Shown: positions 3,696 through 19,603, counted from the first letter of the stretch. The stretch is 64,000 nt of DNA from Pseudomonadota bacterium (GCA_036140295.1 JAYZYL010000002.1:440-64439), one strand, 5' to 3'. Notes: generated from the sequence alone by a model not told the origin. Numbers and translations: made by a program.

Positions 3696-5611
3696 AATTG
3701 TCTCTTCCTTCTATAAGCTACATTAATAATGCCACCCAAAGCCATGAGGATAGCACCAAGCCAAATTAATCTAACTAGCGGTTTATGATAAATTCGTACA
3801 GACCATTTATCCTGATCTATATGATTTCCCAACGTTACATATAGATCTTTGGAAAGACCGGGTTCTATTCCAGCCTCAGTCATAGGTAAGTCATTAGAAA
3901 AATAGAGTCTCTTCTCAGGAAATAATGTTGTTATTAATTTTCCATCTTTTTTTACATCAAATATTCCTACGAGTGCATCATAGTTTGCTGCTTTTATTTC
4001 CTTCATGTCTCTAAATATAAAGTTGTACTCCTTAACTTTAATTTGATCACTGATGCCCATGATAACTTCTTTCTCAGTTTTATCATTCTCAACAATAGTC
4101 GCGCCAAGAATAAAAACAGCAAGTCCTATATGGGCAAAATACATGCCTATATTCTTCCCGGGCCAAGAGAAACTCTTTGCCGTGATCATATTTTTTATTA
4201 ATTCGTAAACAAGATTAATAATTATCCAAAAAAATAGAAATAGACCAACCAGTATAGGTATAGAGTATTTATTAAAGGCATATAGAACTAAAAAGCTCAA
4301 AATAAAGGTCAAAAGAATACTTTGAAATAATTTAGAAATATTTCTATCCGAAAGGCTAGATGTCGAAAATTTTATTATTGGTATAAACCCTGCCAAAAAT
4401 ACAAGTGGTATCATTAATGGGAGAAAAACTAGATTATAATATGGTACTCCAACAGAAATTTTTTCCAAACCTAATAAATCTAAAAGCAAAGGGTATATTG
4501 TTCCTAACAGTATTGTAAAAGTTGCTGTTACCAACAATATATTATTTAAAAGAAAAAAAGTTTCCTTTGAGACTAGATTAAATTTATTTCTATCTTTTAT
4601 TTGGGGTGCGTTTAGAAAATAAATAAATAATGAACTACCAATAATAATAGACAAGAATGCTAAGATGAATACTCCTCTTGCAGGATCATTTGCAAATGAA
4701 TGAACAGAAATTAGTATTCCTGATCTTACTAAAAATGTACCTAATAAGCTTAATGAGAAAGCAAAAATTGACAGTAATATAGTCCAGTTCTTAAATACCT
4801 GCTTTTGTTCGCACATAATTAAAGAATGAATCAGTGCTGTAGTCATAAGCCAAGGCATAAATGAAGCATTTTCTACGGGGTCCCAAAACCACCAACCACC
4901 CCAGCCTAATTCATAATATGCCCACCAACTTCCAAGCGCTATCCCAAGGGTTAAAAAACTCCAAGAGGCTAAGACCCATGGCCTTATCCAATTTGCCCAC
5001 TCTGGTTTAAATTCTTTATGAATACAACAGGTAATGGCAAAACTAAATACTACGGATAAACCAACATAGCCCATATATAATATTGGAGGATGTACAATTA
5101 AACCAAAATCTTGTAGGAGTGGATTGAGATCTTTTCCGTCAATTGGTACTGACAAATTCTTTTCAAATGGATTAGAAGTAAAAACTAGAAACAAAAGAAA
5201 CCCAAGATTGAGCACGCCCATGATGCTTAAAAAGTTTTTTCTAAATTCTAAATCAAGAGTTTTACTAAAATAACTAGCTAAAAACATCCAAAAACTAAGT
5301 ATTAGGCACCAAAGCAACATTGAGCCTTCATGACCTGCCCAAGTTGCAGAAATTTTATAGAAATATGGCAAAGCTGAATTTGAGTTTGATGAAACATATT
5401 GCAAAGAAAAGTCATTAATCAAAAATGAATAAATTAAACAAATAAACGATAAAAGTACAATTGGGAATTGAATCTTGGATGCAGAAAATATTACTTGTTG
5501 GTATGACTTGTCAATTCTTGACAATAATGGTTGGGATGAAACTAATATTATTGAATTAAATAATGCAAGTAAGATTAGAAAAAACCCTATATATGAAATC
5601 ATGTTGCTCAT
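3692..5611 (-). CDS. ccmF: Cytochrome c heme lyase subunit CcmF
   Basis: 639-aa polytopic membrane protein with the WWD-type motif WGGWWFWDPVENAS. Confidence 0.9.
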   Translation of the reverse strand: MSNMISYIGFFLILLALFNSIILVSSQPLLSRIDKSYQQVIFSASKIQFPIVLLSFICLIYSFLINDFSLQYVSSNSNSALPYFYKISATWAGHEGSMLLWCLILSFWMFLASYFSKTLDLEFRKNFLSIMGVLNLGFLLFLVFTSNPFEKNLSVPIDGKDLNPLLQDFGLIVHPPILYMGYVGLSVVFSFAITCCIHKEFKPEWANWIRPWVLASWSFLTLGIALGSWWAYYELGWGGWWFWDPVENASFMPWLMTTALIHSLIMCEQKQVFKNWTILLSIFAFSLSLLGTFLVRSGILISVHSFANDPARGVFILAFLSIIIGSSLFIYFLNAPQIKDRNKFNLVSKETFFLLNNILLVTATFTILLGTIYPLLLDLLGLEKISVGVPYYNLVFLPLMIPLVFLAGFIPIIKFSTSSLSDRNISKLFQSILLTFILSFLVLYAFNKYSIPILVGLFLFFWIIINLVYELIKNMITAKSFSWPGKNIGMYFAHIGLAVFILGATIVENDKTEKEVIMGISDQIKVKEYNFIFRDMKEIKAANYDALVGIFDVKKDGKLITTLFPEKRLYFSNDLPMTEAGIEPGLSKDLYVTLGNHIDQDKWSVRIYHKPLVRLIWLGAILMALGGIINVAYRRKRQL

Positions 5612-6069
5612 TTTAATTGAAGTGATTTAGATGAATCAATTAGAATTTCTCTATTTACTTTTAAACTATCTTTAACTTCAGGAGGCATATAAGTTTCATC
5701 ATGTTTGGCTAGAACTTCCTCCGCAACAAAAATCCCATTATTAAGCAATTTGCCCCTGACAACAACACCTTGTCCCTCGCGGAAAAGATCAGGGAGTATC
5801 CCCTCATATTTAACTGTGATACTTTTTTCAAAATCAGTAATTCTAAATTCTTTATCTGTGGATGTTTTACTCTTAATTAGACTATTATCAACCACTACGC
5901 CACCAATTCTGAAAACATAATTTTCAGGAAATTCATTTTGAGAAATTTGTGATGGGCTTCTATAAAAAAGTAGATTTTCATTAAACGTTTTTATAAATAA
6001 AAAGAATAAAATAACTAGAAAAAATATGATTATAACAATGTAATATAATCTTACTGTTCTTGCCTTCAT
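5608..6069 (-). CDS. ccmE: Heme chaperone CcmE
   Basis: N-terminal anchor, OB-fold-like body and LAKHDETYMPPEV (heme-binding His motif). Confidence 0.85.
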   Translation of the reverse strand: MKARTVRLYYIVIIIFFLVILFFLFIKTFNENLLFYRSPSQISQNEFPENYVFRIGGVVVDNSLIKSKTSTDKEFRITDFEKSITVKYEGILPDLFREGQGVVVRGKLLNNGIFVAEEVLAKHDETYMPPEVKDSLKVNREILIDSSKSLQLK

Positions 6070-6073
6070 AAAA

Positions 6074-6199
6074 TTAATCTTTGTCCTTAATCTGCCTTAT
6101 GGATTCATTATACCTACGAAATAGTAAAAATAAATTCAAAAGCATTACGCCTATTACAATACTGTATGATGAGAAAATATATATAAAATATTGTGCCAT
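6074..6199 (-). CDS. ccmD: Heme exporter protein CcmD (41 aa, not in ORF track)
   Basis: Manual translation of the minus strand gives MAQYFIYIFSSYSIVIGVMLLNLFLLFRRYNESIRQIKDKD*. It has a single TM helix and a basic tail, and ends 5 nt before the ccmE start. Size and position fit CcmD. Confidence 0.5.
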   Translation of the reverse strand: MAQYFIYIFSSYSIVIGVMLLNLFLLFRRYNESIRQIKDKD

Positions 6200-6468
6200 T
6201 TAGGTGATATTATATATCATCATGGATAAAAGTGGTTATAAAAGAAAGAATACTAGAAGCAGTAATATTACAAGGGGTATTTTAGCAATAATACTCCTGT
6301 TCCCTCTCATATGGTTAATTGTTGTAATTATTAAGAATCTTTTATAAATATTTAGTTATCTAAAGTGTCTTTCCCGGCAAATTATCTATAATTTAAAACT
6401 TGCACTTATCTGTATATAGGATGATGATATTGTTATAAACACATGTTTGTTGTGAGAGAAATATAGAT

Positions 6469-6813
6469 ATGAATACTATTAAAGTAGATGGTAAAAATAT
6501 CGCTATAAATGAACAGGGTTATCTTCTCAATTTAGATGAATGGTCCGAAGCATATACAAAGGAAATTGCTAAAAAGGATAATATTGAATTATATAATGAT
6601 CACTGGGAAATAATTTTCTATTTTCGTGAATACTATCATGAGAATGACGCATCACCTACAATGCATCAAATGATTGTAAATTTAATGCCTAAAAATATTA
6701 AATTTCATGATAAGAAAAAATATGAAAAACATATCTATTCTCTGTTTCCATCAGATCCAATAAGAGAGATTTGTAAGTTAGCAGGACTTCCTATGCCAGA
6801 AGCTGATACTTAA
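6469..6813 (+). CDS. DsrC/TusE-family sulfur-relay-like protein (lacks the penultimate Cys)
   Basis: 114 aa with N-terminal G.L....W and YYHEN...SPTM patterns. The C-terminal arm ICKLAGLPMPEADT aligns with DsrC CK(I/L)AGLPKPTGCV. Confidence 0.8.
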   Translation: MNTIKVDGKNIAINEQGYLLNLDEWSEAYTKEIAKKDNIELYNDHWEIIFYFREYYHENDASPTMHQMIVNLMPKNIKFHDKKKYEKHIYSLFPSDPIREICKLAGLPMPEADT

Positions 6814-7149
6814 TGGGAAAATCTAATCTGTAAAGATTTATTGACTCATTCTAAATTTAATATAAAATTATGTTTAGGATGAAAAAGAAGGATTCTCATT
6901 TATTTCCAACATCTATTCAGCATAATAACCATGACCATGATTGTGGTTGTGTTAAATGTTACTTTAATGAGATCACTCTTGGTCCAAAAATTGAGTTTGT
7001 ATGGATAATAGAATATTTTTTAAGATTTATTATACAAAATTCAGATATAAATAACTTAAGACCATCCAGGCTCTTTAGTTCCTCTTACCCAAGATCACCT
7101 CCTTTATAAAATTAATCATTTAAAAAATTAATTTATTAAGGAGATTTTT

Positions 7150-9096
7150 ATGTATAAATATACATTACTGGTCCCTCTATTGATTATATGTGCAAATGTC
7201 TCGTTTGGTGAGACGATAAGTGATGTAGATGTGTCTTCACCATTATTTATAAACTCTGTAAATGAGAATAAGTATCCTGTTCATATAATTGGGAAAGAGG
7301 AGATAAATACTTATCAAAGTATAGGAAATAATATAGAAAACTTGTCTGGCGTTTCCAATGCAGATTATGGTATAGCAATAGGTCAACCTGTGATACGTGG
7401 TTTAACAGGTGATAGGACTAGATTGCTCTCAGATGGAGTTCAAATAAATGACCTAAGTCATATTAGTGGAGATCATTCCAACAATGTGAATTTAAATAAC
7501 ATCTCATATATTGAGATTTTCAAAGGTCCCTCTGCTTTATTTAGCTATGGAGCAACAAGTGGTGGAATTATAAATGTAGTCTCAGACATATTCTCAAATA
7601 AAAAATATTATAGTAAATTTAAACTAGATTATTTAACGGTAAACAATGGATATGGACATAATTTACTATTTAAGGAATATTTGCTAGATACAAATCTATT
7701 TTTTTCATTTAGTAATAAACATCTGGATAATTATAGTCTTCCAGACGGCGCATTATTTGAAGATGGTGTCAAAAAAAGAACTAAATCAAACTCAGATTAT
7801 AAAAACCAAAATATTAAACTAGGCTTATCCTTCCCGAGAGAATGGGGATATTTTGGTATAGCCTTTGAAAATACTGATGGTATTTATGGAATACCATTCC
7901 ATGCCGAGGAAGAAGAGGAAGAAGAGGAAGAAGAGGAACATAGAATCTTCTCAAAAATAGAGTCAGAAACCTTTACCTTGAAAGGGAGGTACAACAAGAT
8001 CATATTTTTTAATTCTATTGATTATTTCTACAGAGATTCTAATTATTTCTTGAAAGAGCATGAAGAAGATGGATCTGCATCTTTGAATAATAATAGTAAA
8101 GAACTTTCTATAAAACTTGATCTAGATGATGACAAATACGAAAAGAAATTACTCTTTCAATATGGTCACAGAAAATCTCCAATGACAGATGCTTATCTTC
8201 CCTCATCAGAGTCCTACGAAAGATCTATCGCTTACTTTGCAAGAACAAAAAATAAACCATATGAAATTGATTTTGCTGGGCGGTATGATTCTAATTCTAG
8301 AGATAGCAATAGTCAACGCTACGGAGATACATCTTTGAGCTTTGCAACAAGTTACTCCAAAAAGCTTAATCAATCTCTTTTTTATACTGTTGGGTATGCT
8401 CACACATCAAGAAGCCCAGCCATATCAGAATTGTTTGCTAATGGTGTTCATGGACCTACTCAAAGATATGAGAGAGGAAATAATAGACTTACTAGGGAAG
8501 TTTCAAGAAATATTGAATTAGGCTTACAGTATGCTGTAAATGATATTAATATAGATCTTAATTTATACAGAAATAATATTAATGATTTTATTTTCTTGAG
8601 TGACCAATCTACTACCACTAGCGGCAAAACTGATGCTAATTGGAGCCAAAAAAATGCTGTCTTTCAGGGGTTTGAAATATCCTTATCTAAAGAATACATC
8701 ATTGACAGGGGCGTTATTCAAATAAAATTAAGTAGAGATGATATTTCTGCAATTTTTGACGATAACACTTATATTCCAAGAGTCACGCCAGCCAGAAATA
8801 TTCTGTCTGCTAGATATGATGATAATGATAATACTAAATACTCATTAGATTTAATTCATGCTGAATCACAAGGAGATTTCTCATCGATTGAAGCGAAAAC
8901 AAACTCTTACATAAATCTAAATGTTGGGTTTTCTAAGATAATCCCTATAGGTCCTGATCAAAATATTACTTTAGACATTCATGCTAATAATATTCTGAAT
9001 AAAACTATAAGAAATCATGAATCATTTGTTAAGGATAATGTTCCTACACCAGGTGCCAATTTTGGAATGGTTATTAATTTTGACTATAAACTTTAG
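7150..9096 (+). CDS. TonB-dependent outer-membrane receptor (metal-type, substrate unknown)
   Basis: Signal peptide, plug domain (VIRGLTGDRTRLLSDGVQINDLSHISGDH...EIFKGPSALFSYGATSGGIINVVS) and a long beta-barrel. AAGGAG Shine-Dalgarno 6 nt upstream. Confidence 0.85.
   Translation: MYKYTLLVPLLIICANVSFGETISDVDVSSPLFINSVNENKYPVHIIGKEEINTYQSIGNNIENLSGVSNADYGIAIGQPVIRGLTGDRTRLLSDGVQINDLSHISGDHSNNVNLNNISYIEIFKGPSALFSYGATSGGIINVVSDIFSNKKYYSKFKLDYLTVNNGYGHNLLFKEYLLDTNLFFSFSNKHLDNYSLPDGALFEDGVKKRTKSNSDYKNQNIKLGLSFPREWGYFGIAFENTDGIYGIPFHAEEEEEEEEEEEHRIFSKIESETFTLKGRYNKIIFFNSIDYFYRDSNYFLKEHEEDGSASLNNNSKELSIKLDLDDDKYEKKLLFQYGHRKSPMTDAYLPSSESYERSIAYFARTKNKPYEIDFAGRYDSNSRDSNSQRYGDTSLSFATSYSKKLNQSLFYTVGYAHTSRSPAISELFANGVHGPTQRYERGNNRLTREVSRNIELGLQYAVNDINIDLNLYRNNINDFIFLSDQSTTTSGKTDANWSQKNAVFQGFEISLSKEYIIDRGVIQIKLSRDDISAIFDDNTYIPRVTPARNILSARYDDNDNTKYSLDLIHAESQGDFSSIEAKTNSYINLNVGFSKIIPIGPDQNITLDIHANNILNKTIRNHESFVKDNVPTPGANFGMVINFDYKL
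7906..7938 (+). repeat. Perfect (GAG GAA GAA)n trinucleotide/9-nt repeat encoding Glu11 inside the TonB-dependent receptor
   Basis: gaggaagaa x3 plus gaggaa read directly from the sequence. It is translated as H-A-E11-H. Confidence 0.95.
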
Positions 9097-9139
9097 TCCT
9101 GTTAATTATATTAATTAGTAAAAAGAGGTGGAATATTAT

Positions 9140-9162
9140 TAATGGCTATGGGTGAACTATGA
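9140..9162. repeat. attL-like copy of the tRNA-Met 3' end
   Basis: aatggctatgggtg (9140-9153) is identical to 13402-13415. The following aactatgaa matches gacttgaa with 1 mismatch and a 1-nt indel. Confidence 0.75.
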
Positions 9163-9195
9163 ATGAATATATAATGATTTTAAATGGAGGTAGAT

Positions 9196-9564
9196 ATGTA
9201 TAAATTGTTTGTTATTTTAATATTATGGATATTTTTTATTCCAAGCCTTTATGCAGAAAACTATATTGCATCAAGACAAGAATTGTGGTTTTCAGATTCG
9301 AGTTATTATAAAACATCACATCACATAAAAATTGGTAAAAGAGTTATGTTTAATAATTATGATTTTTTTGGTGAAGTAGGTATTGGCGAAGATATTGATG
9401 AAGGCACTCCAGTAGGTTCTGGGTCATCATTTGATTATATTAGATTTGGAGTTAGTAAAACTTTCTTTGATTCTTTTAAAGTTAATGTTAATTATCGTAG
9501 TAAGATGAAATCAGATGATAGAGACCTTAACTGGATTGTCATTAATACTAAATATAAATTTTAG
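9196..9564 (+). CDS. Hypothetical exported protein (OMP-like C-terminus)
   Basis: GGAGG lies 5 nt upstream of the ATG at 9196, so the ORF-track start at 9184 is probably inside the SD. Signal peptide MYKLFVILILWIFFIPSLYA/ENY. Ends in ...INTKYKF. Confidence 0.45.
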   Translation: MYKLFVILILWIFFIPSLYAENYIASRQELWFSDSSYYKTSHHIKIGKRVMFNNYDFFGEVGIGEDIDEGTPVGSGSSFDYIRFGVSKTFFDSFKVNVNYRSKMKSDDRDLNWIVINTKYKF

Positions 9565-9566
9565 TT

Positions 9567-9585
9567 GGACATCTTCAGATGCTCC
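9567..9585. terminator. Weak imperfect hairpin between convergent ORFs
   Basis: GGACATC-TTCA-GATG(C)TCC. Short stem with one bulge and no clear U-tract. Confidence 0.2.
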
Positions 9586-9594
9586 TTAAAACAC

Positions 9595-12500
9595 CTATCG
9601 ACATCTTGACAAGATATCATCTAACCATTTCTGTTGTTTGGGGCTTAAGGATTCGCCTTTTTCCAATCTTTTCATCACATTACCGCCTGGCTTTGTAAAA
9701 TCACGTTCTTTATTACTCATGATGTCTTTCTTGCGACAATCTTCTATTTCTTGGAGCAGTGATTTAACATCAGATTCTGATATTGATTTTGTCATTTTTG
9801 TTTTTCCTGAAGTTTTATCAGAGTTATCATTTGCTTTGAGATATTGGTCTATAAAATATTGATCATAATTCTTTATCCAATTACATTTTGTTACATGGCA
9901 TTTAAAATAGCCACCAAAACCATAAAATTTTTTGCCTGGTCTTCTTACGCTTCTAGAATGAAACACGACATCTGGGCTTCCACACTCGGGACATGGTGGG
10001 TTTTCTTTTCCAGCTAAAGCTTCAATGCTTGACCCTGATCTCTTACCCTTTCTATAAATCTCAAGTTGAGCTGATTGAAGTCCAATTTTATTATTAATCG
10101 TCCGCAACATTGTTTCTTCTGAGTTGTTATGAGATAAAGCATTAAGAGATCCTACCCAAAATATATCATTGTCGATCCATATATATTTTTGATGCATTTC
10201 ATACCTAAGATCAATAATTGCTCCAAGGTCTATTAATAACTGATAGGCTTTATATGATTGAGAAGGGTTCCTCATATCTGGAGGTCTGATAACGCATTTA
10301 ATTATGACGCCTTCCTCTGTTTTTTTTCGTATTATATCAGCCCACCATGCCACCCTTTTTTCGGTACAAAAAGGTGAATAAATTATAATCCATTTCTTTG
10401 CTTTATGGAGATCTGGCTTCAGAGTTTCATAAAAGGTTTTCTCATCACATGTAGTTACCTCTCTATCTTTGTATTTGGTTGTTGATACAGGTTTATAATC
10501 AGCCACATCTTTGCTTAATGTTTTTGGAGACAACTCCACTACTTCGCTAAGCTTTTTTTCAACACCTTTTTCTTGAATATCTATTAAAATATCTTTCATG
10601 AGTGCAGTTTGTTTTAGTCTTTCTTCCATATATTTAATATTCGCAAAGGTTATTAAAAAGCCTTTAGCTCGACTTAATGCTACATTCATGACTTTGAAGT
10701 CGTTAAACATTCCCCCTATCCATGGTAGACCATATGTCTCAACTGTATCGAAAATTATGATATCCTTTTCATTGCCCTGAAATCTATGTACTGTTCCGCA
10801 TTCAATATTTTTTAATTCTTCATCATCTAAAATCTTTCTGATAATTTTTGCTTGAGTATTATAAGGTGTTATTATTCCAAGATCTTTTGGTGATTTTATA
10901 AAATTACTCTTTACAAGACTTCGTACAAGATTTCTAATCGCGATAGCATGAAGAAGGTTATACTTAGAATTACTTCTTGGTTTTACATTGCAAAATGGCT
11001 GGTATTCTTGTGTATCAATGAGAATAAGAGAACTAGAAAAAAAATTAGGGTATGAATCTCTTAGCTTACCGGCTTTTTTATCAGTTATTAGACTTCCATA
11101 ATAAAATCTATTATTAATTAAATCGCAAATTACTTTCTCCATTCTGTACTGCACTTTGAGCTGAACAAGATTGTCGGGAAGAGTATTTGTTTCAACTGAG
11201 TCAGCTACGCCTGATTTTTGAAAAACGTCTATTGCCATCCATCTTTTAACAACCTCCTGTTTATCTTCATCAATATAGCTTTTATTCAAAGATTGGACAA
11301 TTGGTGGCAGCTGTTTAAAATCTCCTGTAACAGTAACTTTCTGACTAGCTAACCCTGAAACATAAAAAACTAATGGTAAATGAAGCATTGATGACTCATC
11401 GATGACAACGAGATCATATGTCTTAAATATTTTCCATTTCAAATAAGTCTGAGTTGCAGTTGCTGCTGTAACTCTACATTTATCTAAGAGTTCAGTTTTC
11501 TTCTTATCAATCTCATTTTGAACTTTTGTAATTTCACTAGTAATATCAGATATGTCTTTTTGCATTATGTCGCGTTTTGATTCAACAGGTTCAATACTTA
11601 AATTCTTAACTTTTTTTTCTAACTCTGATTCAGATTTTTTTAATCTTTTAAGATTTCCAGAAAGTTCTTTTAATTTCTCAGGTGCATTCTTTAATTTAAC
11701 TTTTAACTCATTAAGCTCCATTTTAAGTTCGCTTATATGCCTTTCAATGTCCTCTTTGCTTCTTTTGCCAGCGAACCAGTTTGCTACAGTACCTATAACA
11801 GTACTAGATCTAGCAGTGCCCAACTCTTTTTTAAGATCATTAATTGAACGTTCTTTAGTAGTAATTTCAGGTCCAGATTCATTTATGAATAATTTAAAGT
11901 CTTCTATTTCTGCTTCTCTATCAATATTTTCTTTTTTCATTTTTTGATATTTATAATAATTGTTTATGTCATCATCAATAGGTTTTATTTTTTCGTATAA
12001 TTTGTCTAACTTCTTTGTTAGTTCAGTGATTTTCATCTGAAGTGGCGTAGTAAGACGTTTGACCACTTCATCTAAATCAATATATTCTTTATACTTTCGA
12101 GATACCTCCTCATTGATAATTTTTCCAAATCTTAAGACAGAAGCTTCTTTGAAATCCTTATCTTTAATTTTTGTTAGCTGATCACATAAACTTTTTAATA
12201 AAATATCCACTGCCATATTGGTATTTGATACAAGCAATATTTTTTTATTATTCTTATAAAAATAATAAATGACCTCTGCCAATGTAAAGGTTTTACCTGT
12301 ACCCGGCGGCCCCCATAAGTAAAGCAATTCTGATCCCGATATCACTTTTAACGCATTAAACTGGTTGTCATTAAGGCTCTCGGGTTTTTCTTTTAAGGAT
12401 GAATTGATTTTTATTTTTGATTTTTTTAAACCTAAAGTTTTAAGGGCCAAGTCGGTATTAAATACACTCACATCATCTATTTTAGATACATTTTCTAATC

Positions 12501-12888
12501 TATCTTTTAGTCTCTCCAGCAGAAAGGAATTATTGGTTTTTATTGATGCATGAGCTATTTCTTTTCCTAAATTTTCATTTATTGAAATCCTAATATCCCT
12601 TCCAATAATCGATACTATTGACCCCGTATAAGTGTTCTCACCAACTATAAATTCAATTGGTGTTTCTTCGTTCAGTAATAATGAGTCATCTAGCTTAAAG
12701 CTATAAATGTATTCGTTAGCTACATGATCCTGCAAATTACCATTGGTTATTTCAATGGAATTTTCTATTGCCGTTTTTTTTACACAATCTATCTCAATCT
12801 CTAATGCTTCACCCATTTTGATAAATGCGGGATCAATCTTCGTTAGATCTTCATCTTCAGCCTTCTTTAAATCCTCATCTTGAGCCAT
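9595..12888 (-). CDS. SF1 (Upf1/DNA2-like, COG1112-type) helicase fused to an HKD/PLD nuclease and a topo-type C4 zinc ribbon; Mokosh type II (MkoC)-like
   Basis: Helicase motifs in order: Walker A LWGPPGTGKTF (nt 12289-12312), DLVVIDESSM, GDFKQLPP, QYRM, ITPYNTQ, VHRFQGNEKD, VALSRAK. HKD motif HQKYIWIDNDIFWVGSLN (nt 10141-10194). Zinc ribbon CPECG...CHVTKC (nt 9883-9993). Confidence 0.85.
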   Translation of the reverse strand: MAQDEDLKKAEDEDLTKIDPAFIKMGEALEIEIDCVKKTAIENSIEITNGNLQDHVANEYIYSFKLDDSLLLNEETPIEFIVGENTYTGSIVSIIGRDIRISINENLGKEIAHASIKTNNSFLLERLKDRLENVSKIDDVSVFNTDLALKTLGLKKSKIKINSSLKEKPESLNDNQFNALKVISGSELLYLWGPPGTGKTFTLAEVIYYFYKNNKKILLVSNTNMAVDILLKSLCDQLTKIKDKDFKEASVLRFGKIINEEVSRKYKEYIDLDEVVKRLTTPLQMKITELTKKLDKLYEKIKPIDDDINNYYKYQKMKKENIDREAEIEDFKLFINESGPEITTKERSINDLKKELGTARSSTVIGTVANWFAGKRSKEDIERHISELKMELNELKVKLKNAPEKLKELSGNLKRLKKSESELEKKVKNLSIEPVESKRDIMQKDISDITSEITKVQNEIDKKKTELLDKCRVTAATATQTYLKWKIFKTYDLVVIDESSMLHLPLVFYVSGLASQKVTVTGDFKQLPPIVQSLNKSYIDEDKQEVVKRWMAIDVFQKSGVADSVETNTLPDNLVQLKVQYRMEKVICDLINNRFYYGSLITDKKAGKLRDSYPNFFSSSLILIDTQEYQPFCNVKPRSNSKYNLLHAIAIRNLVRSLVKSNFIKSPKDLGIITPYNTQAKIIRKILDDEELKNIECGTVHRFQGNEKDIIIFDTVETYGLPWIGGMFNDFKVMNVALSRAKGFLITFANIKYMEERLKQTALMKDILIDIQEKGVEKKLSEVVELSPKTLSKDVADYKPVSTTKYKDREVTTCDEKTFYETLKPDLHKAKKWIIIYSPFCTEKRVAWWADIIRKKTEEGVIIKCVIRPPDMRNPSQSYKAYQLLIDLGAIIDLRYEMHQKYIWIDNDIFWVGSLNALSHNNSEETMLRTINNKIGLQSAQLEIYRKGKRSGSSIEALAGKENPPCPECGSPDVVFHSRSVRRPGKKFYGFGGYFKCHVTKCNWIKNYDQYFIDQYLKANDNSDKTSGKTKMTKSISESDVKSLLQEIEDCRKKDIMSNKERDFTKPGGNVMKRLEKGESLSPKQQKWLDDILSRCR

Positions 12889-12907
12889 GATAAACCCTTA
12901 AATTGTA

Positions 12908-13360
12908 GTGTTTTATCATTATAATAGATTTATGAATAGTATAATAATAATTTTGGGGTTGTTGTTAGTTCTGCTTGTTAGCTCTTATATATCGAGCAAC
13001 AAAAAAATGAGTGTTAGGGTGTCTGAGGGAAAACATATGTTGAGTAAAAATAAAACAACTGATTTACATTTATTGTGTAAAGACTATAAGTTTATAAATC
13101 GTTCAACAAATGAAAAATTTACTTCAGGATATTGGTATTTTTCATTAGAGAGAGCTTCCTCTTTGATTGGAGCTAATATCTATTTTCATAATACCAAGTC
13201 GGAATTATCATACACAGGTGGGATAATAACTAAAGTTGAACAGCAGAAATACAATGAACAAGACCGTATTGTATTTACTTTTGAGTTTAATCAAAAAAAT
13301 ATCGATAAATCATGGCAAGGAGATACAAATCCAAGAGCATGGTACAGTATTGTAAAATGA
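12908..13360 (+). CDS. Hypothetical protein divergent from the helicase gene (start ambiguous)
   Basis: The ORF runs from GTG 12908. ATG 12932 would give a TM-anchored protein (NSIIIILGLLLVLLVSSYI). ATG 13037 is preceded by GAGGGA and would give a soluble 107-aa protein. No family recognised. Confidence 0.4.
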   Translation: MFYHYNRFMNSIIIILGLLLVLLVSSYISSNKKMSVRVSEGKHMLSKNKTTDLHLLCKDYKFINRSTNEKFTSGYWYFSLERASSLIGANIYFHNTKSELSYTGGIITKVEQQKYNEQDRIVFTFEFNQKNIDKSWQGDTNPRAWYSIVK

Positions 13361-13401
13361 GAGCTGATTTTATTGACGTGTAGAGTGATAAATAAGGCCA
13401 A

Positions 13402-13423
13402 AATGGCTATGGGTGGACTTGAA
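13402..13423. repeat. attR-like repeat (3' end of tRNA-Met plus 2 nt)
   Basis: Partner of the repeat at 9140-9162. Confidence 0.75.
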
Positions 13424-13477
13424 CCACCGACCGCAGCGTTATGAGTGCTGTGCTCTAACCAACTGAGCTACATAGCC
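13404..13477 (-). tRNA. tRNA-Met (anticodon CAU, elongator-like)
   Basis: Reverse complement GGCTATGTAGCTCAGTTGGTTAGAGCACAGCACTCATAACGCTGCGGTCGGTGGTTCAAGTCCACCCATAGCCA folds as a cloverleaf and closely resembles E. coli elongator tRNA-Met. No CCA is encoded. tRNA-Ile2 (lysidine) is not formally excluded. Confidence 0.85.
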
Positions 13478-13478
13478 A

Positions 13479-14555
13479 TTAAATATTAAACCTAAAATAA
13501 ATAACATCTCCCTCTTGCACTATATAATCCTTTCCCTCTTGTCTCCATACTCCACTATTTTTTGATCCCTGCTCGCCATTATGTTTTATGTATTCATCGT
13601 AGGCAACTGTTTCTGCTCTTATAAAACCCTTTTGTATATCTGTATGTATAATACCCGAACAGTCTCGTGCATTAAAATCTTTTTTAGCAGACCAAGCCCT
13701 TGTTTCCTTAGGACCTGAGGTAAAAAATGTTTTGAATTGTAATAATTGATAACCCGTATTAATGATCTTATCTAAAGCATATGTATTATCACTCATTTCC
13801 TTTAAAAACTCTTGTTTTTCCCTATCATCTAATTCAGAAATATCCTGTTCAGTTCTGACGTCAATTGTTAAAAGTTTTATCTTACTGTTCAATTTATTCT
13901 GAAAATCTGTAAGATCACTCTGGCTCGTATTGCTATTTACATTAGCAATAACAAACATAGGTTTATTTGTAAGTAACGTCAAATCATTCAATTGTAAGGT
14001 ATCTTCACTAAACTCAAATGTTGATGCAAAATGTCCACTATTTAGATGTTTTAATAATAGATTTAATTCTTCAATTATTGAGTTTTTTGATTTTTGATCA
14101 ACTCTGCTTTTTTCAATCCTAATAATATATTTTTCAATTCTGTTTATATCAGCTAATATAAGTTCAGAATTAATGTCATCAAAATCATCATCAGGGCTCA
14201 GGGCCCCTTTAACGTGAATAATTTCATCATCCTTAAAAAATCTAACAACATGAGCAATAACGTCTGTATTATTGATATGATTTAGAAATTCATTACCAAG
14301 TCCTTCACCTTTTGATGCTCCCTTTATTAGTCCTGCAATATCAACGAATTCAATTGAAGCATTAATAACTTTTTCTGATTTATTTATTTCAGCTAATTTA
14401 TCTAGTCTAGTATCAGGTACCTTTACATATGCAACATTTGGATCAATTGTACAAAATGGATAGTTGCTTGCTGGTATTTTTTGTGATGTTAGTAAATTAA
14501 ATATCGATGATTTTCCAACGTTTGGCATTCCAATGAGTCCACATTTAAATCCCAT
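13479..14555 (-). CDS. ychF: Redox-regulated ATPase YchF
   Basis: GLIGMPNVGKSSIFN P-loop, NYPFCTIDPN, and C-terminal TGS-like region ending GDVIYFRFN. Confidence 0.9.
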   Translation of the reverse strand: MGFKCGLIGMPNVGKSSIFNLLTSQKIPASNYPFCTIDPNVAYVKVPDTRLDKLAEINKSEKVINASIEFVDIAGLIKGASKGEGLGNEFLNHINNTDVIAHVVRFFKDDEIIHVKGALSPDDDFDDINSELILADINRIEKYIIRIEKSRVDQKSKNSIIEELNLLLKHLNSGHFASTFEFSEDTLQLNDLTLLTNKPMFVIANVNSNTSQSDLTDFQNKLNSKIKLLTIDVRTEQDISELDDREKQEFLKEMSDNTYALDKIINTGYQLLQFKTFFTSGPKETRAWSAKKDFNARDCSGIIHTDIQKGFIRAETVAYDEYIKHNGEQGSKNSGVWRQEGKDYIVQEGDVIYFRFNI

Positions 14556-14556
14556 T

Positions 14557-15144
14557 TTAGAAATTCTCGCCGTTTAAAATATTCATAAGTTTTGAAAAAT
14601 CAAGATTAAAAAATTCATCATAATGGTTAATGCTGAAATCAATACTTTTTACCATCCTCTCCCTATCTTCCTTCGAAGGTTTGCCAAGTACATAATTATT
14701 TGTGTCATCTTTATGAATTGGTTTTCCAATCCCTATTCTTAATCTCCAAAAATTTTTAGATCCAAGCTGCTCAATAATACTGTCTAGACCTTTATGCCCC
14801 CCACTACTACCACCTAATTTCATACGTGTTTTCCCTACTACCAAATCAAGATCATCATGGATAATTAAAATATTCTCTGTCTTTATATTGGTGTTTTTTA
14901 TAAATTTCTTGATTGGCACTCCGCTATTATTTATATAGCTTAAGGGTTTCATGAAAGTTATACTTTTCCCGTTTTTTTCTAGATTAAATATTTCAGACTC
15001 AAATTTTTTAGACAAGATTAGATCTTTTCGAAATTTTTCAGATAGCAAGTCTATGAACCAAAAGCCAACGTTATGTCTAGTTCCTAATAAATTTTTATCA
15101 GGGTTTCCTAAACCAACAATAAGTTGTAGTGGCTGTTCATTCAT
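14557..15144 (-). CDS. pth: Peptidyl-tRNA hydrolase
   Basis: LIVGLGNP...TRHNVGF and GGHKGL motifs. Conserved position between ychF and rplY. Confidence 0.9.
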   Translation of the reverse strand: MNEQPLQLIVGLGNPDKNLLGTRHNVGFWFIDLLSEKFRKDLILSKKFESEIFNLEKNGKSITFMKPLSYINNSGVPIKKFIKNTNIKTENILIIHDDLDLVVGKTRMKLGGSSGGHKGLDSIIEQLGSKNFWRLRIGIGKPIHKDDTNNYVLGKPSKEDRERMVKSIDFSINHYDEFFNLDFSKLMNILNGENF

Positions 15145-15167
15145 AGTAGAAAGCGTGAGAACTAAGG

Positions 15168-15926
15168 TTAGCCTTTCTTAGGTTCACCTTTTTCTGTTTT
15201 TGTATCTTCTGCTTTTGTCTCACCTTTTTCTTTTTCCTTTTCAGATTCAGCTTTATCGCCTTTAGCTGCTGCTTCTTCTCCTTCTGCTGCTTCTTCTCCT
15301 TCTGCTGCTTCTTCTCCTTCTTCAGGTTTGACTTCTTCCTCTATCTTTTCTTCCTTAGGCATATAACAATTTACAACAGCAGTATCATGCTCTTTATCAC
15401 CCGCAGATAGCTCAACCCCTTCTGGAATTTTAATCTCAGAAATATGAATACTATTTCCAATATCAAGATTACTTACATCAACCTCAATATTGTCAGGGAT
15501 ACTTTTTGGCAAACAGCTTATTTGTAACTCTGTAAGAGCATGAGATAATTTTCCTCCAGATATTTTAATTCCTATACAACCATCTTCTCCAATGAATTTG
15601 ATAGGTACACTGACAGTAACTTTTTTATCCTGACGGACTATTTGGAAGTCTATATGAGTAATTTTTGATCTTTCAGGGTCTCTTTGGAGATTTTTTAGAA
15701 TTACTTCTTTGTTTTTACTCCCTATTTTTAAGTTAATAACATGACTGTAAAAAGCTGTATCTTTGATTTGTTTGTCAAGTTGAAAACTATTAATTAAGAC
15801 TGACTGGTTTCCGTCAGCATCTCCATATATTTCAGCTGGTATAAGATTGTTGCTCCTATACCGTCTAGACGCTCTTTTTCCAAACTTATCTCTTTCCTGA
15901 GCTTCAAGCATAAATTGTGATGTCAT
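15168..15926 (-). CDS. rplY: 50S ribosomal protein L25 (Ctc form) with a long acidic/lysine-rich tail
   Basis: R.....G..R..R..N.IPA..YG pattern and a two-domain Ctc-type body. The C-terminal ~60 aa are low-complexity E/A/G/K. Confidence 0.85.
   Translation of the reverse strand: MTSQFMLEAQERDKFGKRASRRYRSNNLIPAEIYGDADGNQSVLINSFQLDKQIKDTAFYSHVINLKIGSKNKEVILKNLQRDPERSKITHIDFQIVRQDKKVTVSVPIKFIGEDGCIGIKISGGKLSHALTELQISCLPKSIPDNIEVDVSNLDIGNSIHISEIKIPEGVELSAGDKEHDTAVVNCYMPKEEKIEEEVKPEEGEEAAEGEEAAEGEEAAAKGDKAESEKEKEKGETKAEDTKTEKGEPKKG
15265..15321. repeat. 18-nt tandem repeat x3 in the rplY tail (encodes EGEEAA x3)
   Basis: gctgcttcttctccttct repeated three times on the plus strand, read directly. 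Confidence 0.9.
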
Positions 15927-15962
15927 TTTACTTATTCCGTCATTAAATTTAGGATTATACTA

Positions 15963-16916
15963 CTATTCCATAAAAAGTGAACTGACAGATTCCTTTTGAT
16001 GGATTCTTCTTATGGTCTCGGCAAGCATTTCCGAAACTGAAATTTGTCTTATTTTTTTAATTTTTTTAGTTGTTTCTCGAAGGGGGATTGTATCAGTAAC
16101 AACAATCTCGTCAAGTTCAGATTTTTCTATATTCTCATTTGCGTTTCCTGATAACACTGGATGTGTGATATATGCGACCACTTTTTTGGCTCCCTTCTCT
16201 TTTAATGCTTTGGCAGCATGACAAAGTGTTCCTGCAGTATCAACTATATCATCAACAATCATACAAGACATATCTTGTACATTCCCAATGATTTGCATAA
16301 CTTCAGAAACATTTTGATCTGTTCTCCTTTTGTCTACAATTGCTAAATCAGAATTCAATTGTTTTGCTAATGCTCTTGCCCTTACGACACCGCCAACATC
16401 AGGGGATACTACAATCATATCTGGATATTTCTGTTTATATATATCTGCAACCAAAAGTGGGGTTGCATAAATATTATCTACTGGTATGTCAAAGAATCCT
16501 TGTATTTGATCGGCGTGAAGGTCAATTGTTAATAACCTGTCTATTCCCATACCGGTAATCATATTAGCAACGACTTTTGCTGTAATTGGAACTCTTGCAG
16601 ATCGAACTCTTCTGTCTTGTCTTGAATATCCAAAATATGGAAGTACTGCTGTGATTCTATCTACAGAAGATCGCCTTAATGCATCTGTCATAACCATTAA
16701 TTCCATTAAATTTTTATTAGTAGGGTTACATGTTGGCTGAATAATAAATATATCTTGTCCTCTTACATTTTCTTGTATTTCTACAGATATTTCCCCATCA
16801 CTAAATGTCCCAACGGCAGCTTTTCCAACGGATAGGTTTAAGTTTTTAGCAACAGCAACAGCTAATTGTGGGTTAGAGTTTCCGGCAAAAACCATTAGTG
16901 ATTTTTCATCTTTCAT
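15963..16916 (-). CDS. prs: Ribose-phosphate pyrophosphokinase
   Basis: [12 protein letters not shown] and the PRPP-binding loop [12 protein letters not shown]. Confidence 0.95.
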
Positions 16917-16934
16917 ATGTAGTTCCTCTTTGTT

Positions 16935-17006: not shown

Positions 17007-17033
17007 ATCTTTTTATTTTTTTCTCAAACATAT

Positions 17034-19542: not shown

Positions 19543-19603
19543 AGTAGTATAATATCACATATTACAAACATCGGAGATTGTATTATTTTCATACAGAAAG
19601 ATT

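What the first reader, a model, noticed from the sequence alone, without database searches (positions are those of the whole stretch)
9595..12888. Single-polypeptide Upf1/DNA2-like helicase + HKD (PLD) nuclease + topo-type zinc ribbon: a Mokosh-II-like candidate defence gene with extra modules
Seen in sequence: a 1097-aa minus-strand ORF with these parts in order. (i) About 170 aa of unassigned N-terminus. (ii) SF1 helicase motifs: Walker A LWGPPGTGKTF (nt 12289-12312), motif II DLVVIDESSM (about nt 11389-11409), GDFKQLPP, QYRM, ITPYNTQ, VHRFQGNEKD, VALSRAK. (iii) One complete HKD motif, HQKYIWIDNDIFWVGSLN, which fits HxK(x)4D(x)6GSxN (nt 10141-10194). (iv) A C-x2-C...C-x4-C ribbon, CPECGSPD...FKCHVTKC (nt 9883-9993), shaped like topoisomerase-IA C4 fingers. 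(v) A K/E/S-rich tail of about 95 aa. Established knowledge: a COG1112-type RNA/DNA helicase plus a PLD nuclease defines Mokosh anti-phage systems, and type II carries both on one protein. Single-HKD nucleases such as Nuc and Zucchini work as dimers. Inference: this is a nucleic-acid-targeting defence or anti-mobile-element enzyme. To my knowledge the zinc ribbon, the coiled-coil insert and the two small flanking ORFs are not part of the described Mokosh definition, so this may be an undescribed variant. It is the only obviously accessory gene in a window that is otherwise core genome.
Basis: partly seen in the sequence, partly recalled or inferred. Interest (0 to 1): 0.85.

Follow-up and report, generated by a model that had tools for sequence, protein, structure and literature searches.

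The report
Mokosh-like helicase-nuclease on tRNA islet
The gene encodes a single large protein that joins an RNA/DNA helicase, a PLD-type nuclease and a zinc ribbon; it is a distant, differently built relative of the Mokosh type II anti-phage protein, and it sits on a 4.3-kb islet inserted at a tRNA-Met gene that near-identical strains lack.

Summary
Window 9595-12888 (-) is an intact 1097-aa ORF. It has a Upf1-like SF1 helicase (AAA_11 9e-27, AAA_12 2.9e-36), one PLDc_2/HKD nuclease domain (1.1e-7, above the Pfam cut-off) and a conserved C4 ribbon. All catalytic residues are invariant in 32 relatives.

It is related to Mokosh type II (MkoC) but is not a canonical member. The PADLOC MkoC model gives 157 bits over part of the protein. 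Two bona fide MkoC proteins give 1244 and 1387 bits end to end. hhalign aligns only residues 163-946 (probability 99.9%, 23% identity). The N-terminal beta-barrel, the ribbon and the helical tail have no MkoC counterpart.

The protein belongs to a large unnamed family: all 150 listed (top-scoring) 50%-identity cluster representatives score 760-1514 bits. Most members carry two ribbons, and the Pfam topoisomerase model hits only the second one, which this protein lacks.

New here: the gene lies on a 4,261-bp islet without an integrase, at the 3' end of tRNA-Met, bounded by a duplicated tRNA end. Contigs 98-99.9% identical in the flanks show the empty site.

Relatives often sit beside restriction-modification, McrBC, SIR2/HerA or AIPR genes, and three times in a DrmD/type IIG/DruE-like operon. 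Anti-phage function is inferred, not tested. Verdict: new variant of a known kind, moderate interest.

The parts
9141..9158 (.). Distal att-like repeat: a partial copy (AATGGCTATGGGTGAACT, 17/18) of the 3' end of tRNA-Met. Outer boundary of the islet.
   Evidence: the repeat finder family D10. The 16-mer is expected 0.17 times per window at up to 3 mismatches and is found here with 1 mismatch. Empty-site contigs L150 and L152 join exactly here, and L068 diverges exactly here.
9184..9564 (+). orf126: small secreted beta-rich protein, convergent with the helicase gene. Islet cargo, not a conserved partner.
   Evidence: ORF list. Weak Phage_OMP hit, 5e-4, below cut-off. No PADLOC hit. Absent from relatives' loci. 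Present next to tRNA-Met in L151, which lacks the helicase.
9565..9594 (.). 30-nt spacer between the two convergent stop codons. It holds a short hairpin (CATCTgaaGATG) and is the inner breakpoint of the L151 allele.
   Evidence: Sequence and L151 comparison. Only a degenerate 9/11 match to the tRNA T-arm.
9595..12888 (-). The 1097-aa helicase-PLD-zinc ribbon gene (NCBI MEC9205689.1, annotated 'AAA domain-containing protein').
12484..12831 (-). N-terminal module, aa 20-135: helix, six-stranded beta-barrel, helix. Probably the stalk plus 1B barrel of Upf1-like helicases.
   Evidence: AF2 model, block pLDDT 74-94. Conserved G50, Y62, F64, G108. Foldseek alignments to Upf1/IGHMBP2 span 800-820 columns with TM 0.70-0.76 per target, which implies the N-terminus is included (indirect). 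No Pfam hit. Not aligned to the MkoC N-terminus.
12286..12318 (-). Walker A (motif I) LWGPPGTGKTF.
11479..12048 (-). Long antiparallel coiled-coil hairpin (aa 281-470) inserted in RecA1 between motifs Ia and II.
   Evidence: AF2 helices 281-358, 378-400, 402-427 and 432-470, with block pLDDT mostly 86-95 and a dip to 57-71 at the tip, residues 361-380. SMC/Rad50/tropomyosin-type profile hits.
11386..11415 (-). Motif II (Walker B) DLVVIDESSM.
10639..11178 (-). RecA2 lobe (AAA_12, aa 571-750) with motifs QYRM, ITPYNTQ, VHRFQGNEKD and VALSRAK.
   Evidence: Pfam 2.9e-36. Motif positions.
10051..10458 (-). Single-HKD PLD nuclease domain (aa 811-946). HKD motif at nt 10141-10194.
   Evidence: PLDc_2 1.1e-7. 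MkoB 3.6e-4. Foldseek NucT 3.6e-8, Nuc 1.1e-7 (TM 0.70), Zucchini 1.9e-7. H899, K901, D906, G913, S914 and N916 invariant.
9883..9993 (-). C4 zinc ribbon 1 (C966-x2-C969 ... C997-x4-C1002), conserved across the family.
   Evidence: Only weak generic Zn-ribbon Pfam hits. The family profile matches E. coli Topo I residues 712-795, E 4e-6.
9598..9882 (-). Helical tail (aa 1003-1097) shared only with the closest relatives P0002-P0005. It replaces the second, Top1-type ribbon of the rest of the family.
   Evidence: C-terminal comparison. AF2 helices 1038-1096, block pLDDT 82-94 in the two models. No significant Pfam hit.
12908..13360 (+). orf150 (gene callers prefer a 117-aa version that starts at about 13007), divergent from the helicase gene. 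Islet cargo of unknown function.
   Evidence: No Pfam or PADLOC hit. Not found beside any relative.
13402..13419 (.). Proximal att repeat, which is the 3' end of the intact tRNA-Met.
13403..13478 (-). tRNA-Met (CAT), the integration target, abutting the ychF stop codon.
   Evidence: ARAGORN. Same arrangement in L067, L068, L150-L152.

Best explanation
The gene encodes a stand-alone helicase-nuclease that most likely acts against invading nucleic acid (phage or other mobile DNA), in the manner of Mokosh type II. It arrived as cargo of a 4.26-kb islet that integrated into the 3' end of tRNA-Met.

Proposed mechanism, with the status of each step:
1. The Upf1-like SF1B motor loads on single-stranded nucleic acid and translocates 5'->3' using ATP. 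The fold and motifs are shown. The polarity and the substrate are inferred from Upf1, IGHMBP2 and DNA2.
2. The N-terminal barrel/stalk and the C4 ribbon hold the single strand. This is inferred from the Upf1 1B domain and from the ssDNA-binding zinc ribbons of E. coli topoisomerase I.
3. The single-HKD PLD domain cuts the strand through a phospho-histidine intermediate. The fold and catalytic residues are shown. The chemistry is inferred from Nuc and Zucchini.
4. One HKD is only half an active site, so cleavage should need two protomers to pair. The long coiled-coil hairpin is the obvious candidate for pairing or licensing. This step is inference only.

Whether the target is ssDNA or RNA is open. 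The topoisomerase-type ribbons of the family lean towards ssDNA.
For: Architecture and intact catalytic residues.

Structure:
- Full-length AF2 model, pLDDT 84.5, matches SETX, IGHMBP2, Upf1 and Dna2 at 1e-27 to 1e-31.
- C-terminal model, pLDDT 87.7, matches NucT, Nuc, Zucchini and PLD3 at 4e-8 to 1e-6.

Homology to proven defence proteins:
- PADLOC MkoA 1.2e-64, MkoC 2e-46, MkoB 3.6e-4.
- hhalign to two bona fide MkoC proteins: probability 99.9%, E 6e-32, over residues 163-946.
- Millman et al. [quoted passage not shown] They show that ATP-binding-site and PLD-site mutants lose defence.
- Preprint 10.1101/2025.07.10.664194 finds EcMokosh II monomeric at rest and protective against an ssDNA phage.

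Accessory status:
- tRNA-Met abuts the islet. An 18-nt repeat of the tRNA 3' end bounds it.
- Contigs L150 and L152, 98.5-99.9% identical in the flanks, have tRNA-Met followed directly by the TonB receptor gene.
- Homologue P0004 (53% identical) sits at the same tRNA-Met/ychF site in another marine lineage, inverted and with different cargo.
- P0013 in Methylophilales MBRSG12 lies in an integrase-bearing island next to a tRNA cluster.

Neighbourhoods of relatives:
- Type I R-M + SIR2 + DUF87, and Fic.
- Type I S subunit + McrBC.
- AIPR.
- WYL.
- A DrmD-like / type IIG / DruE-like / UvrD-like operon three times.

No neighbour family is conserved across 66 loci, so the gene can act alone. Distribution is patchy over many phyla.
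Against: - No experiment exists on this protein or on any member of its family. Defence is inferred from distant homology (23% identity to MkoC) and from context.
- The MkoC profile match is partial and weak next to real members: 157 against 1244-1387 bits.
- Defence context is not universal. Ten large neighbours in seven of the more distant loci gave no PADLOC hit at 1e-10. No formal enrichment statistic was computed.
- Within the islet itself there is no other known defence gene and no integrase.
- Dimerisation through the coiled coil and the choice of substrate are untested.
Confidence: 0.65

Rival explanations
1. The enzyme serves the mobile islet itself rather than the host. For example, it could act as a processing, replication or transfer helicase-nuclease, or as an addiction-type function that stabilises an integrase-less element at tRNA-Met.
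For: The gene is the only large cargo of a 4.26-kb islet bounded by att-like repeats. PLD nucleases of the Nuc type are structurally its closest relatives. Canonical MkoC copies were found on plasmids next to a MobF relaxase and an IS91 transposase.
Against: There are no relaxase, replication-initiator or integrase features in the protein. The same family occurs in chromosomal R-M/McrBC/SIR2 islands and inside multi-gene defence-like operons, where no transfer role is evident. No full-length member was found in viral contigs or plasmids.
Confidence: 0.12
2. It is normally one subunit of a larger DISARM/Druantia-like system, filling the PLD-nuclease position of DrmC. The copy in this window would be an orphan that works poorly or not at all on its own.
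For: In L003, L004 and L164 the family member sits between a DrmD-like SNF2 helicase (1.2e-104) plus a type IIG/DrmMI-like methyltransferase (1.8e-288) and a DruE-like 2100-aa helicase (1.7e-101) plus a UvrD/GajB-like helicase. The order is conserved while the proteins are only 59-75% identical.
Against: Most loci, including the closest relatives (P0004, P0010, P0013, P0015), lack these partners, and no neighbour family is conserved. No DrmC profile hit at E<=1. The window copy has every catalytic residue intact. It is 100% identical in contigs from two further samples (L068, L069), which argues against decay.
Confidence: 0.1
3. It is a housekeeping RNA- or DNA-processing enzyme of the host, for example an RNA-decay or repair helicase-nuclease analogous to Upf1, IGHMBP2 or DNA2.
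For: The best NCBIfam and PDB matches are eukaryotic housekeeping helicases: IGHMBP2 family 8.5e-50, Upf1, DNA2, SETX.
Against: Strains 98-99.9% identical in the flanks lack the gene altogether. Distribution is patchy across phyla with no fixed locus. The NCBIfam score is far below the family cut-off: 169.8 against 348.9.
Confidence: 0.03

Closest known systems
Mokosh type II (MkoC; Millman et al. 2022)
   Same: One polypeptide with a Upf1-like COG1112-type SF1 helicase first and a single-HKD PLD nuclease after it. It is homologous from the Walker A region to the end of the PLD domain (hhalign probability 99.9%, residues 163-946 against MkoC 257-1157). There is a large insert between Walker A and motif II in both. 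It usually has no obligatory partner gene.
   Different: Only about 23% identical. It scores 157 bits, partial, on the PADLOC MkoC model, against 1244-1387 bits end to end for real MkoC. The N-terminal 162 aa (barrel/stalk) do not align to the 256-aa MkoC N-terminus. It adds a conserved C4 ribbon, plus a second Top1-type ribbon in most of the family or a helical tail here. MkoC lacks all of these.
Mokosh type I (MkoA + MkoB)
   Same: The helicase core is most similar to the MkoA profile (1.2e-64, residues 162-773). The PLD weakly matches MkoB (3.6e-4).
   Different: Type I splits helicase and PLD into two genes and adds a Ser/Thr kinase domain to MkoA. Here they are fused and no kinase domain is present.
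Upf1 / IGHMBP2 / SETX / DNA2 (eukaryotic SF1B helicases)
   Same: Fold and all helicase motifs. The predicted barrel + stalk lies ahead of RecA1.
   Different: A 190-aa coiled-coil hairpin takes the place of the small 1C insertion. A PLD nuclease and a zinc ribbon are fused at the C-terminus. It is a bacterial accessory gene.
Nuc / NucT / Zucchini (MitoPLD): single-HKD nucleases that work as dimers
   Same: Best structural matches of residues 811-946, TM 0.60-0.70 per target. The full HxK(x)4D(x)6GSxN motif is present.
   Different: Those are small free-standing proteins of 150-200 aa. Here the domain is tethered to a motor, so dimer formation must involve the whole 127-kDa protein.
C-terminal zinc ribbons of E. 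coli topoisomerase I (Pfam PF01396; PDB 4RUL)
   Same: The family profile aligns its tandem ribbons to Topo I residues 712-795 (E 4e-6). The second ribbon of relatives passes the Pfam threshold (41-57 bits against a cut-off of 32).
   Different: The window protein keeps only ribbon 1, which Pfam PF01396 does not detect.
DISARM class 1 (DrmD, DrmMI, DrmA, DrmB, DrmC) and Druantia (DruE)
   Same: In three loci a family member occupies a position between DrmD-like/DrmMI-like genes and a DruE-like gene, supplying the PLD nuclease domain that DrmC supplies in DISARM.
   Different: None of these genes is in the window. No DrmC profile hit.
tRNA-integrated genomic islands
   Same: Insertion at the 3' end of a tRNA gene, duplication of the tRNA end as direct repeats, and an empty site in sister strains.
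   Different: Only 4.26 kb and without an integrase or any other mobility gene.

Membership tests
Mokosh type II (MkoC) | [quoted passage not shown] | tested here: met
   AAA_11/AAA_12 at 172-750 and PLDc_2 at 826-927. Foldseek to Upf1 and to Nuc.
Mokosh type II (MkoC) | Intact ATP-binding site and HKD active site (both needed for defence in Millman et al.) | tested here: met
   GPPGTGKT, DE, H899, K901 and D906 are present and invariant in the family.
Mokosh type II (MkoC) | Full-length match to the MkoC profile (PADLOC PDLC03924) at the level of accepted members | tested here: not met
   157 bits in three partial stretches, best 487-925 on model 667-1106. Accepted members give 1387 and 1244 bits over model 1-1135.
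Mokosh type II (MkoC) | Homology of the helicase-PLD core to MkoC | tested here: met
   hhalign probability 99.9%, E 6e-32, 736 columns. BLASTP 1e-17.
Mokosh type II (MkoC) | MkoC-type N-terminal region (about 256-290 aa before Walker A) | tested here: not met
   The hhalign alignment starts at query 163 / template 257. The N-terminal 162 aa are unaligned.
Mokosh type II (MkoC) | Protection against phage | not testable with these tools
   Needs expression and phage challenge.
Mokosh type I (MkoA/MkoB) | Separate helicase (with Ser/Thr kinase domain) and PLD genes | tested here: not met
   Fused protein, no kinase domain, no adjacent PLD gene.
Upf1-like SF1B helicases | SF1 motifs I, Ia, II, III, IV, V, VI and a two-RecA fold with accessory barrel/stalk | tested here: met
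Single-HKD PLD nucleases (Nuc/Zucchini type) | One HxK(x)4D(x)6GSxN motif on a Nuc-like fold | tested here: met
Single-HKD PLD nucleases (Nuc/Zucchini type) | Homodimer that builds one active site from two HKD halves | not testable with these tools
   Only monomer prediction was available. EcMokosh II is reported monomeric at rest.
Topoisomerase I-type C4 zinc ribbon (Pfam PF01396) | Match to PF01396 above threshold | tested here: not met
   No hit on the window protein or on its isolated ribbon, even at E<=10. Relatives pass only on a second ribbon that is absent here.
Topoisomerase I-type C4 zinc ribbon (Pfam PF01396) | Four conserved Cys in a CxxC...CxnC ribbon related to the Topo I C-terminal domains | tested here: inconclusive
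   The Cys are conserved. The family profile hits Topo I 4rul at E 4e-6 across both ribbons. AF2 shows a small beta ribbon.
DISARM DrmC | PLD protein encoded within a drmA/drmB-containing operon and matching DrmC profiles | tested here: not met
   No drm genes in the window. No DrmC hit at E<=1.
tRNA-integrated genomic island | Insertion at a tRNA 3' end, flanked by direct repeats of that end | tested here: met
tRNA-integrated genomic island | Empty site in close relatives | tested here: met
   L150 and L152.
tRNA-integrated genomic island | Island-encoded integrase | tested here: not met
   Only three ORFs and none is integrase-like. The Methylophilales island carrying P0013 does have one.

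The most novel reading that the evidence does not exclude
The helicase-PLD-zinc-ribbon family is a defence system in its own right, not a Mokosh subtype. In this reading the topoisomerase-type ribbons direct a Upf1-like motor to single-stranded DNA, such as rolling-circle or conjugative intermediates and ssDNA phages. The coiled-coil hairpin licenses the split HKD site by pairing two motors on one substrate. The same protein can be plugged in as the nuclease module of a hybrid DISARM/Druantia-like operon.
Probability: 0.25. Interest if true: 0.6.

Novelty: new variant of a known kind. Interest (0 to 1): 0.45.

Why it matters
- Mokosh is widespread, yet its mechanism is unsolved. A large sister family would give a natural comparison for what the motor senses and how a half-site nuclease is switched on. 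This family keeps the helicase-PLD core but swaps the N-terminus and adds ssDNA-type zinc ribbons.
- The family is currently annotated only as 'AAA domain-containing protein'. It scores far below real MkoC on the existing profile, so it may be missed or mislabelled in defence censuses.
- The tRNA-Met islet has three alleles in near-identical marine strains. It is a clean natural presence/absence system in a low-GC (about 31%) marine genome, and could be used for read-recruitment studies of defence-gene turnover.
- The recurrent DrmD / type IIG / helicase-PLD / DruE / UvrD operon hints at a modular hybrid system that has not been described.

Tried and rejected
- Metagenome scan with YchF to find the empty site. 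Only two close relatives turned up, and both contigs end at ychF. The empty site was found instead through members of the 90% YchF cluster.
The genome scan missed the closest relatives. The absence of full-length viral hits is therefore only weak evidence.
- Plasmid and phage tblastn with the whole protein found no full-length relative.
- Seven other helicase-PLD proteins from the first search (P0028, P0036, P0040, P0045, P0049, P0050, P0069) were tested as possible canonical MkoC. All scored only 109-153 bits. Real MkoC was then recovered from Arsenophonus and Agrobacterium plasmids.
- Pfam on the isolated N-terminus, ribbon, coiled coil and tail gave nothing significant.
- The NCBIfam name 'PLuB system helicase-like protein' (3.4e-33) could not be traced in the literature held.
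- Supplementary files of the 2025 nuclease-NTPase preprint are not held.
- A conserved partner gene was sought by all-against-all clustering of 921 neighbour ORFs from 66 loci. None was found.
- A third att copy was sought in the window. The only candidate is a 3-mismatch match at 3729 (-), inside a gene, which I judged to be chance.
- An att remnant at the inner junction (9565-9594) was looked for. Only a 9/11 match was found, so it is unresolved whether the helicase module inserted second or was deleted in L151.
- GC content of the islet does not differ from the rest of the window, so composition gave no evidence for or against transfer.
- Promoter and terminator scans were no better than shuffled sequence.

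Full report
**1. The observation**

Window 9595-12888 (minus strand) is one uninterrupted ORF of 1097 aa. Their coordinates are exact or within a few bases:
- Walker A: aa 191-201.
- Motif II: aa 492-501.
- HKD: aa 899-916, nt 10141-10194.
- Cysteines 966, 969, 997 and 1002: nt 9883-9993.
- A 95-aa tail.

Profile searches confirm the domains:
- Pfam AAA_11 9e-27, AAA_12 2.9e-36, PLDc_2 1.1e-7 (32.2 bits, cut-off 27).
- PDB sequence search: Upf1/NAM7 1.8e-22, then DNA2 and IGHMBP2.

In an alignment of 32 relatives (27-58% identity) every helicase and HKD catalytic residue is invariant. C966 is invariant and the other three cysteines are at least 90% conserved.

**2. Anatomy from structure prediction**

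The full-length AF2 model has mean pLDDT 84.5. It shows these parts in order:
- Helix 20-40, a six-stranded beta-barrel 44-118 and helix 122-135.
- RecA1, starting near residue 172.
- An antiparallel coiled-coil hairpin of about 190 residues (helices 281-358 and 378-470) inserted between motifs Ia and II.
- RecA2.
- A linker.
- A PLD domain, 811-946.
- A small beta ribbon holding the four cysteines.
- A helical bundle, 1038-1096.

Foldseek places the whole model with SETX, IGHMBP2, Upf1 and Dna2, at E 1e-27 to 1e-31 and TM 0.70-0.76 per target for IGHMBP2 and Upf1. The alignments span 800-820 columns. That is more than residues 170-785 could supply, so the N-terminal barrel is probably the counterpart of the Upf1 stalk/1B module. 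This point is an indirect inference.

A separate model of residues 797-1097 has pLDDT 87.7. It matches NucT (3.6e-8), Nuc (1.1e-7, TM 0.70), Zucchini/MitoPLD and PLD3. Nuc and Zucchini work as dimers.

**3. The family**

The protein is deposited as MEC9205689.1, 'AAA domain-containing protein', from a Pseudomonadota MAG.

A profile search of 1.84 billion cluster representatives returned 150 listed hits. All score 760-1514 bits, and most match end to end. The family is therefore large and unnamed.

Members occur in marine Gammaproteobacteria-like metagenomes and in Methylophilales, Desulfobacterium, Bacillota, Planctomycetota, Hydrogenedentota, Frankiaceae, Nanopelagicales and Streptomyces. This patchy distribution suggests horizontal transfer.

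C-terminal comparison shows three forms:
- Most members have ribbon 1, a basic linker and a second ribbon.
- Some end after ribbon 1.
- The window protein and its four closest relatives (P0002-P0005) replace ribbon 2 with a conserved helical tail (...DF.KPGGNV.KRL...LS.KQQKWL.DIL).

Pfam Zn_ribbon_Top1 fires only on ribbon 2 of relatives, at 41-57 bits. It does not fire on the window protein. The family profile does align both ribbons to the zinc-ribbon region of E. coli topoisomerase I (4rul residues 712-795, E 4e-6).

**4. Relation to Mokosh**

[quoted passage not shown] They show that both active sites are needed for defence.

PADLOC models fire on the window protein: MkoA 1.2e-64, MkoC 2e-46 (157 bits, partial) and MkoB 3.6e-4.

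To calibrate these scores I recovered two real MkoC proteins from plasmids:
- Arsenophonus nasoniae WP_280626512.1: 1387 bits.
- Agrobacterium WP_099086640.1: 1244 bits.

Both match the model end to end. Against them the window protein is 23.5% identical over about 480 aa.

hhalign of the family alignment against the MkoC pair gives probability 99.9% and E 6e-32. It covers only residues 163-946, matched to MkoC 257-1157. The N-terminal 162 aa and everything after the PLD domain have no MkoC counterpart.

Canonical MkoC has no CxxC ribbon and ends 57-89 aa after the HKD. It also has a long Walker A to motif II spacer, about 400 aa against 300 aa here. The coiled-coil insert is therefore not a distinguishing feature, whereas the ribbon and the termini are.

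I file the protein as a distant architectural relative of MkoC, that is, a new variant. It is not a member of the MkoC family as currently modelled.

**5. The islet**

- ARAGORN finds tRNA-Met (CAT) at 13403-13478 (-), abutting the ychF stop codon.
- The last 16 nt of this tRNA recur at 9143-9158 with one mismatch. The 16-mer is expected 0.17 times per window even at three mismatches.
- Two contigs from other marine metagenomes, L150 and L152, were found through the 90% YchF cluster. They are 97.8-98.5% identical to the window on the ychF side and 99.9% on the other side.
- In them, tRNA-Met runs straight into the TonB-receptor flank...CCACCCATAGCCATT|AATAATATTCC....

The window therefore carries a 4,261-bp insertion, 9141-13401, with duplication of the tRNA end. 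It contains orf126, the helicase-PLD gene and orf150, and it has no integrase.

Other alleles:
- L068 carries the same islet at 99.8% identity. It diverges from the window exactly at the outer repeat, into a lipoprotein-like ORF. This suggests tandem cargo at the site.
- L151 is 99.7% identical in the flank. It has tRNA-Met, five unaligned bases, and then the 3' end of orf126. It thus lacks orf150 and the helicase gene, a 3,837-bp difference. The contig ends there, so this allele needs confirmation.
- A 53%-identical homologue (P0004, TARA contig L067) lies at the same tRNA-Met/ychF site in a more distant organism (YchF 63% identical). It is inverted and has different neighbours.
- In Methylophilales MBRSG12 the homologue P0013 lies in an island that starts with an integrase just after a tRNA-Pro/Arg/His cluster. 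An overlapping HNH-HIT gene follows it.

The gene is thus strain-variable cargo of tRNA-associated islands.

**6. The small flanking ORFs**
- Both are on the opposite strand to the helicase gene.
- orf126 has a signal-peptide-like start and a weak, sub-threshold Phage_OMP hit. orf150 has no Pfam hit.
- Neither has a PADLOC hit.
- Neither occurs beside any relative.
- orf126 persists in L151 without the helicase.
- Gene callers start orf150 at an internal Met, giving 117 aa. That leaves a 118-nt divergent promoter region.

They are islet cargo, not demonstrable system components.

**7. Context of relatives**

Defence-type neighbours are frequent but not universal.
- L006: type I R-M with an inserted SIR2 + DUF87 pair, and Fic.
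- L165: type I S subunit, DUF6161 and McrBC.
- L009: AIPR.
- L005: WYL.
- One further full-length locus carries a type I R-M set. The pooled scan found type I R, M and S subunits in two of the 16 loci, one of them L006.
- L003, L004 and L164 share a conserved operon: a DrmD-like SNF2 helicase (1.2e-104), a type IIG/DrmMI-like methyltransferase (1.8e-288), a small ORF, the family member, a DruE-like 2100-aa helicase (1.7e-101) and a UvrD/GajB-like helicase. L164 is cut upstream, so only the family member, the DruE-like gene and the UvrD-like gene are seen there. Between L003 and L004 the proteins are 59-75% identical, so this is not one recent island.

Against this, ten large neighbours in seven more distant loci had no PADLOC hit at 1e-10. 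I computed no formal enrichment. No neighbour family is shared across loci, which fits a protein that can act alone.

**8. Mechanism**

Shown:
- A Upf1-like motor with intact ATPase motifs.
- A Nuc/Zucchini-like half-site nuclease with an intact HKD.
- A conserved C4 ribbon.
- A coiled-coil hairpin.
- Accessory, island-borne status.

Inferred from the named families:
- 5'->3' translocation on a single strand (Upf1, IGHMBP2, DNA2).
- Strand capture by the barrel and the ribbon (Upf1 1B domain; Topo I ribbons bind ssDNA).
- Metal-independent cleavage through phospho-histidine (Nuc, Zucchini).
- A need for two HKD halves, and hence activation by pairing. The coiled coil is the likely mediator. 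EcMokosh II is reported monomeric at rest and active against an ssDNA phage.

I put 0.65 on 'stand-alone anti-mobile-element helicase-nuclease working like Mokosh II'. The rivals:
- Element-selfish function: 0.12.
- Orphan subunit of a DISARM/Druantia-like system: 0.10.
- Housekeeping enzyme: 0.03, contradicted by the empty site.

**9. Verdict**

The protein is not an oddity. It represents a large, unnamed, Mokosh-related family. The extra modules that truly set it apart from MkoC are the N-terminal barrel and the zinc ribbon(s) or tail, not the coiled coil.

The most useful new facts are:
- The calibrated distance from canonical MkoC.
- The precise tRNA-Met islet with its empty site and alternative alleles.
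- The recurrent hybrid operon in distant relatives.

Novelty: new variant of a known kind. Interest: 0.45.

Noticed in passing
L003 1534-21755; L004 384-21736; L164 1-13392: A recurrent operon: DrmD-like SNF2 helicase, type IIG/DrmMI-like methyltransferase, small ORF, helicase-PLD-ribbon family member, DruE-like 2100-aa DEAD/MZB helicase, and UvrD/GajB-like helicase. In L003 a ZorA-like gene follows. Proteins are 59-75% identical between L003 and L004. It looks like an undescribed DISARM/Druantia hybrid in which the family member supplies the PLD nuclease.
   Followed up: partly
L151 11078-11314 versus window 9410-9564 and 13402: A third allele of the tRNA-Met site. The tRNA is followed after 5 nt by the 3' end of orf126, so orf150 and the helicase gene (3,837 bp) are missing. 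The contig ends inside orf126. Insertion order versus deletion, and assembly error, are not resolved. The inner junction in the window has only a 9/11 match to the tRNA T-arm.
   Followed up: partly
L068 6750-7296 (window side: left of 9141): A contig with the identical islet continues beyond the outer att repeat into a lipoprotein-like ORF (MNKILPIILVVVLSGCGG...) instead of the TonB receptor gene. This suggests a second, tandem cargo segment at the same tRNA-Met site in that strain.
   Followed up: no
L001 13494-14540 (and L002 3665-4702): In Methylophilales MBRSG12 a 328-349-aa HNH + HIT fusion gene follows the homologue P0013. It abuts or overlaps the 3' end, depending on the start called. 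It lies inside an integrase-bearing island next to tRNA-Pro/Arg/His and may be a lineage-specific partner.
   Followed up: no
window 12889-13006: The start of orf150 is ambiguous. The GTG at 12908 gives 150 aa with a hydrophobic N-terminus and leaves only 19 nt to the divergent helicase start. Gene callers use an internal ATG (117 aa), which leaves 118 nt for two divergent promoters.
   Followed up: partly
window 7150-9096 (+), about residues 253-266 of the product: The TonB-dependent receptor next to the islet contains an uninterrupted run of 12 glutamates (HAEEEEEEEEEEEEHRIF), which is unusual inside a beta-barrel receptor.
   Followed up: no
window 15168-15926 (-): Ribosomal protein L25 (rplY position) carries a C-terminal extension of about 60 aa that is acidic and lysine-rich, with EEAAEG repeats.
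   Followed up: no
plasmid hits H61-H67 (Clostridium botulinum plasmids): The RecA2 part of the query hits genes annotated 'serine/threonine-protein kinase' on C. botulinum plasmids. This is what a type I Mokosh MkoA (kinase + helicase) would look like.
   Followed up: no
L162 2592-6080; L163 2523-6050: Bona fide MkoC genes (1244-1387 bits) sit on an Arsenophonus plasmid between an IS91 transposase and a MobF relaxase, and on Agrobacterium pAt plasmids upstream of an HxsABC radical-SAM cluster. Both are annotated only as 'AAA domain-containing protein'.
   Followed up: no
window 1-9140 and 13402-24555: The flanks of the islet are 97.8-99.9% identical to contigs from several independent marine metagenomes (SANC23, ZHAN22, ICM0335 and others). 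The host is therefore a recurrent marine population, about 31% GC, deposited only as 'Pseudomonadota bacterium'. Its taxonomy was not resolved here.
   Followed up: no
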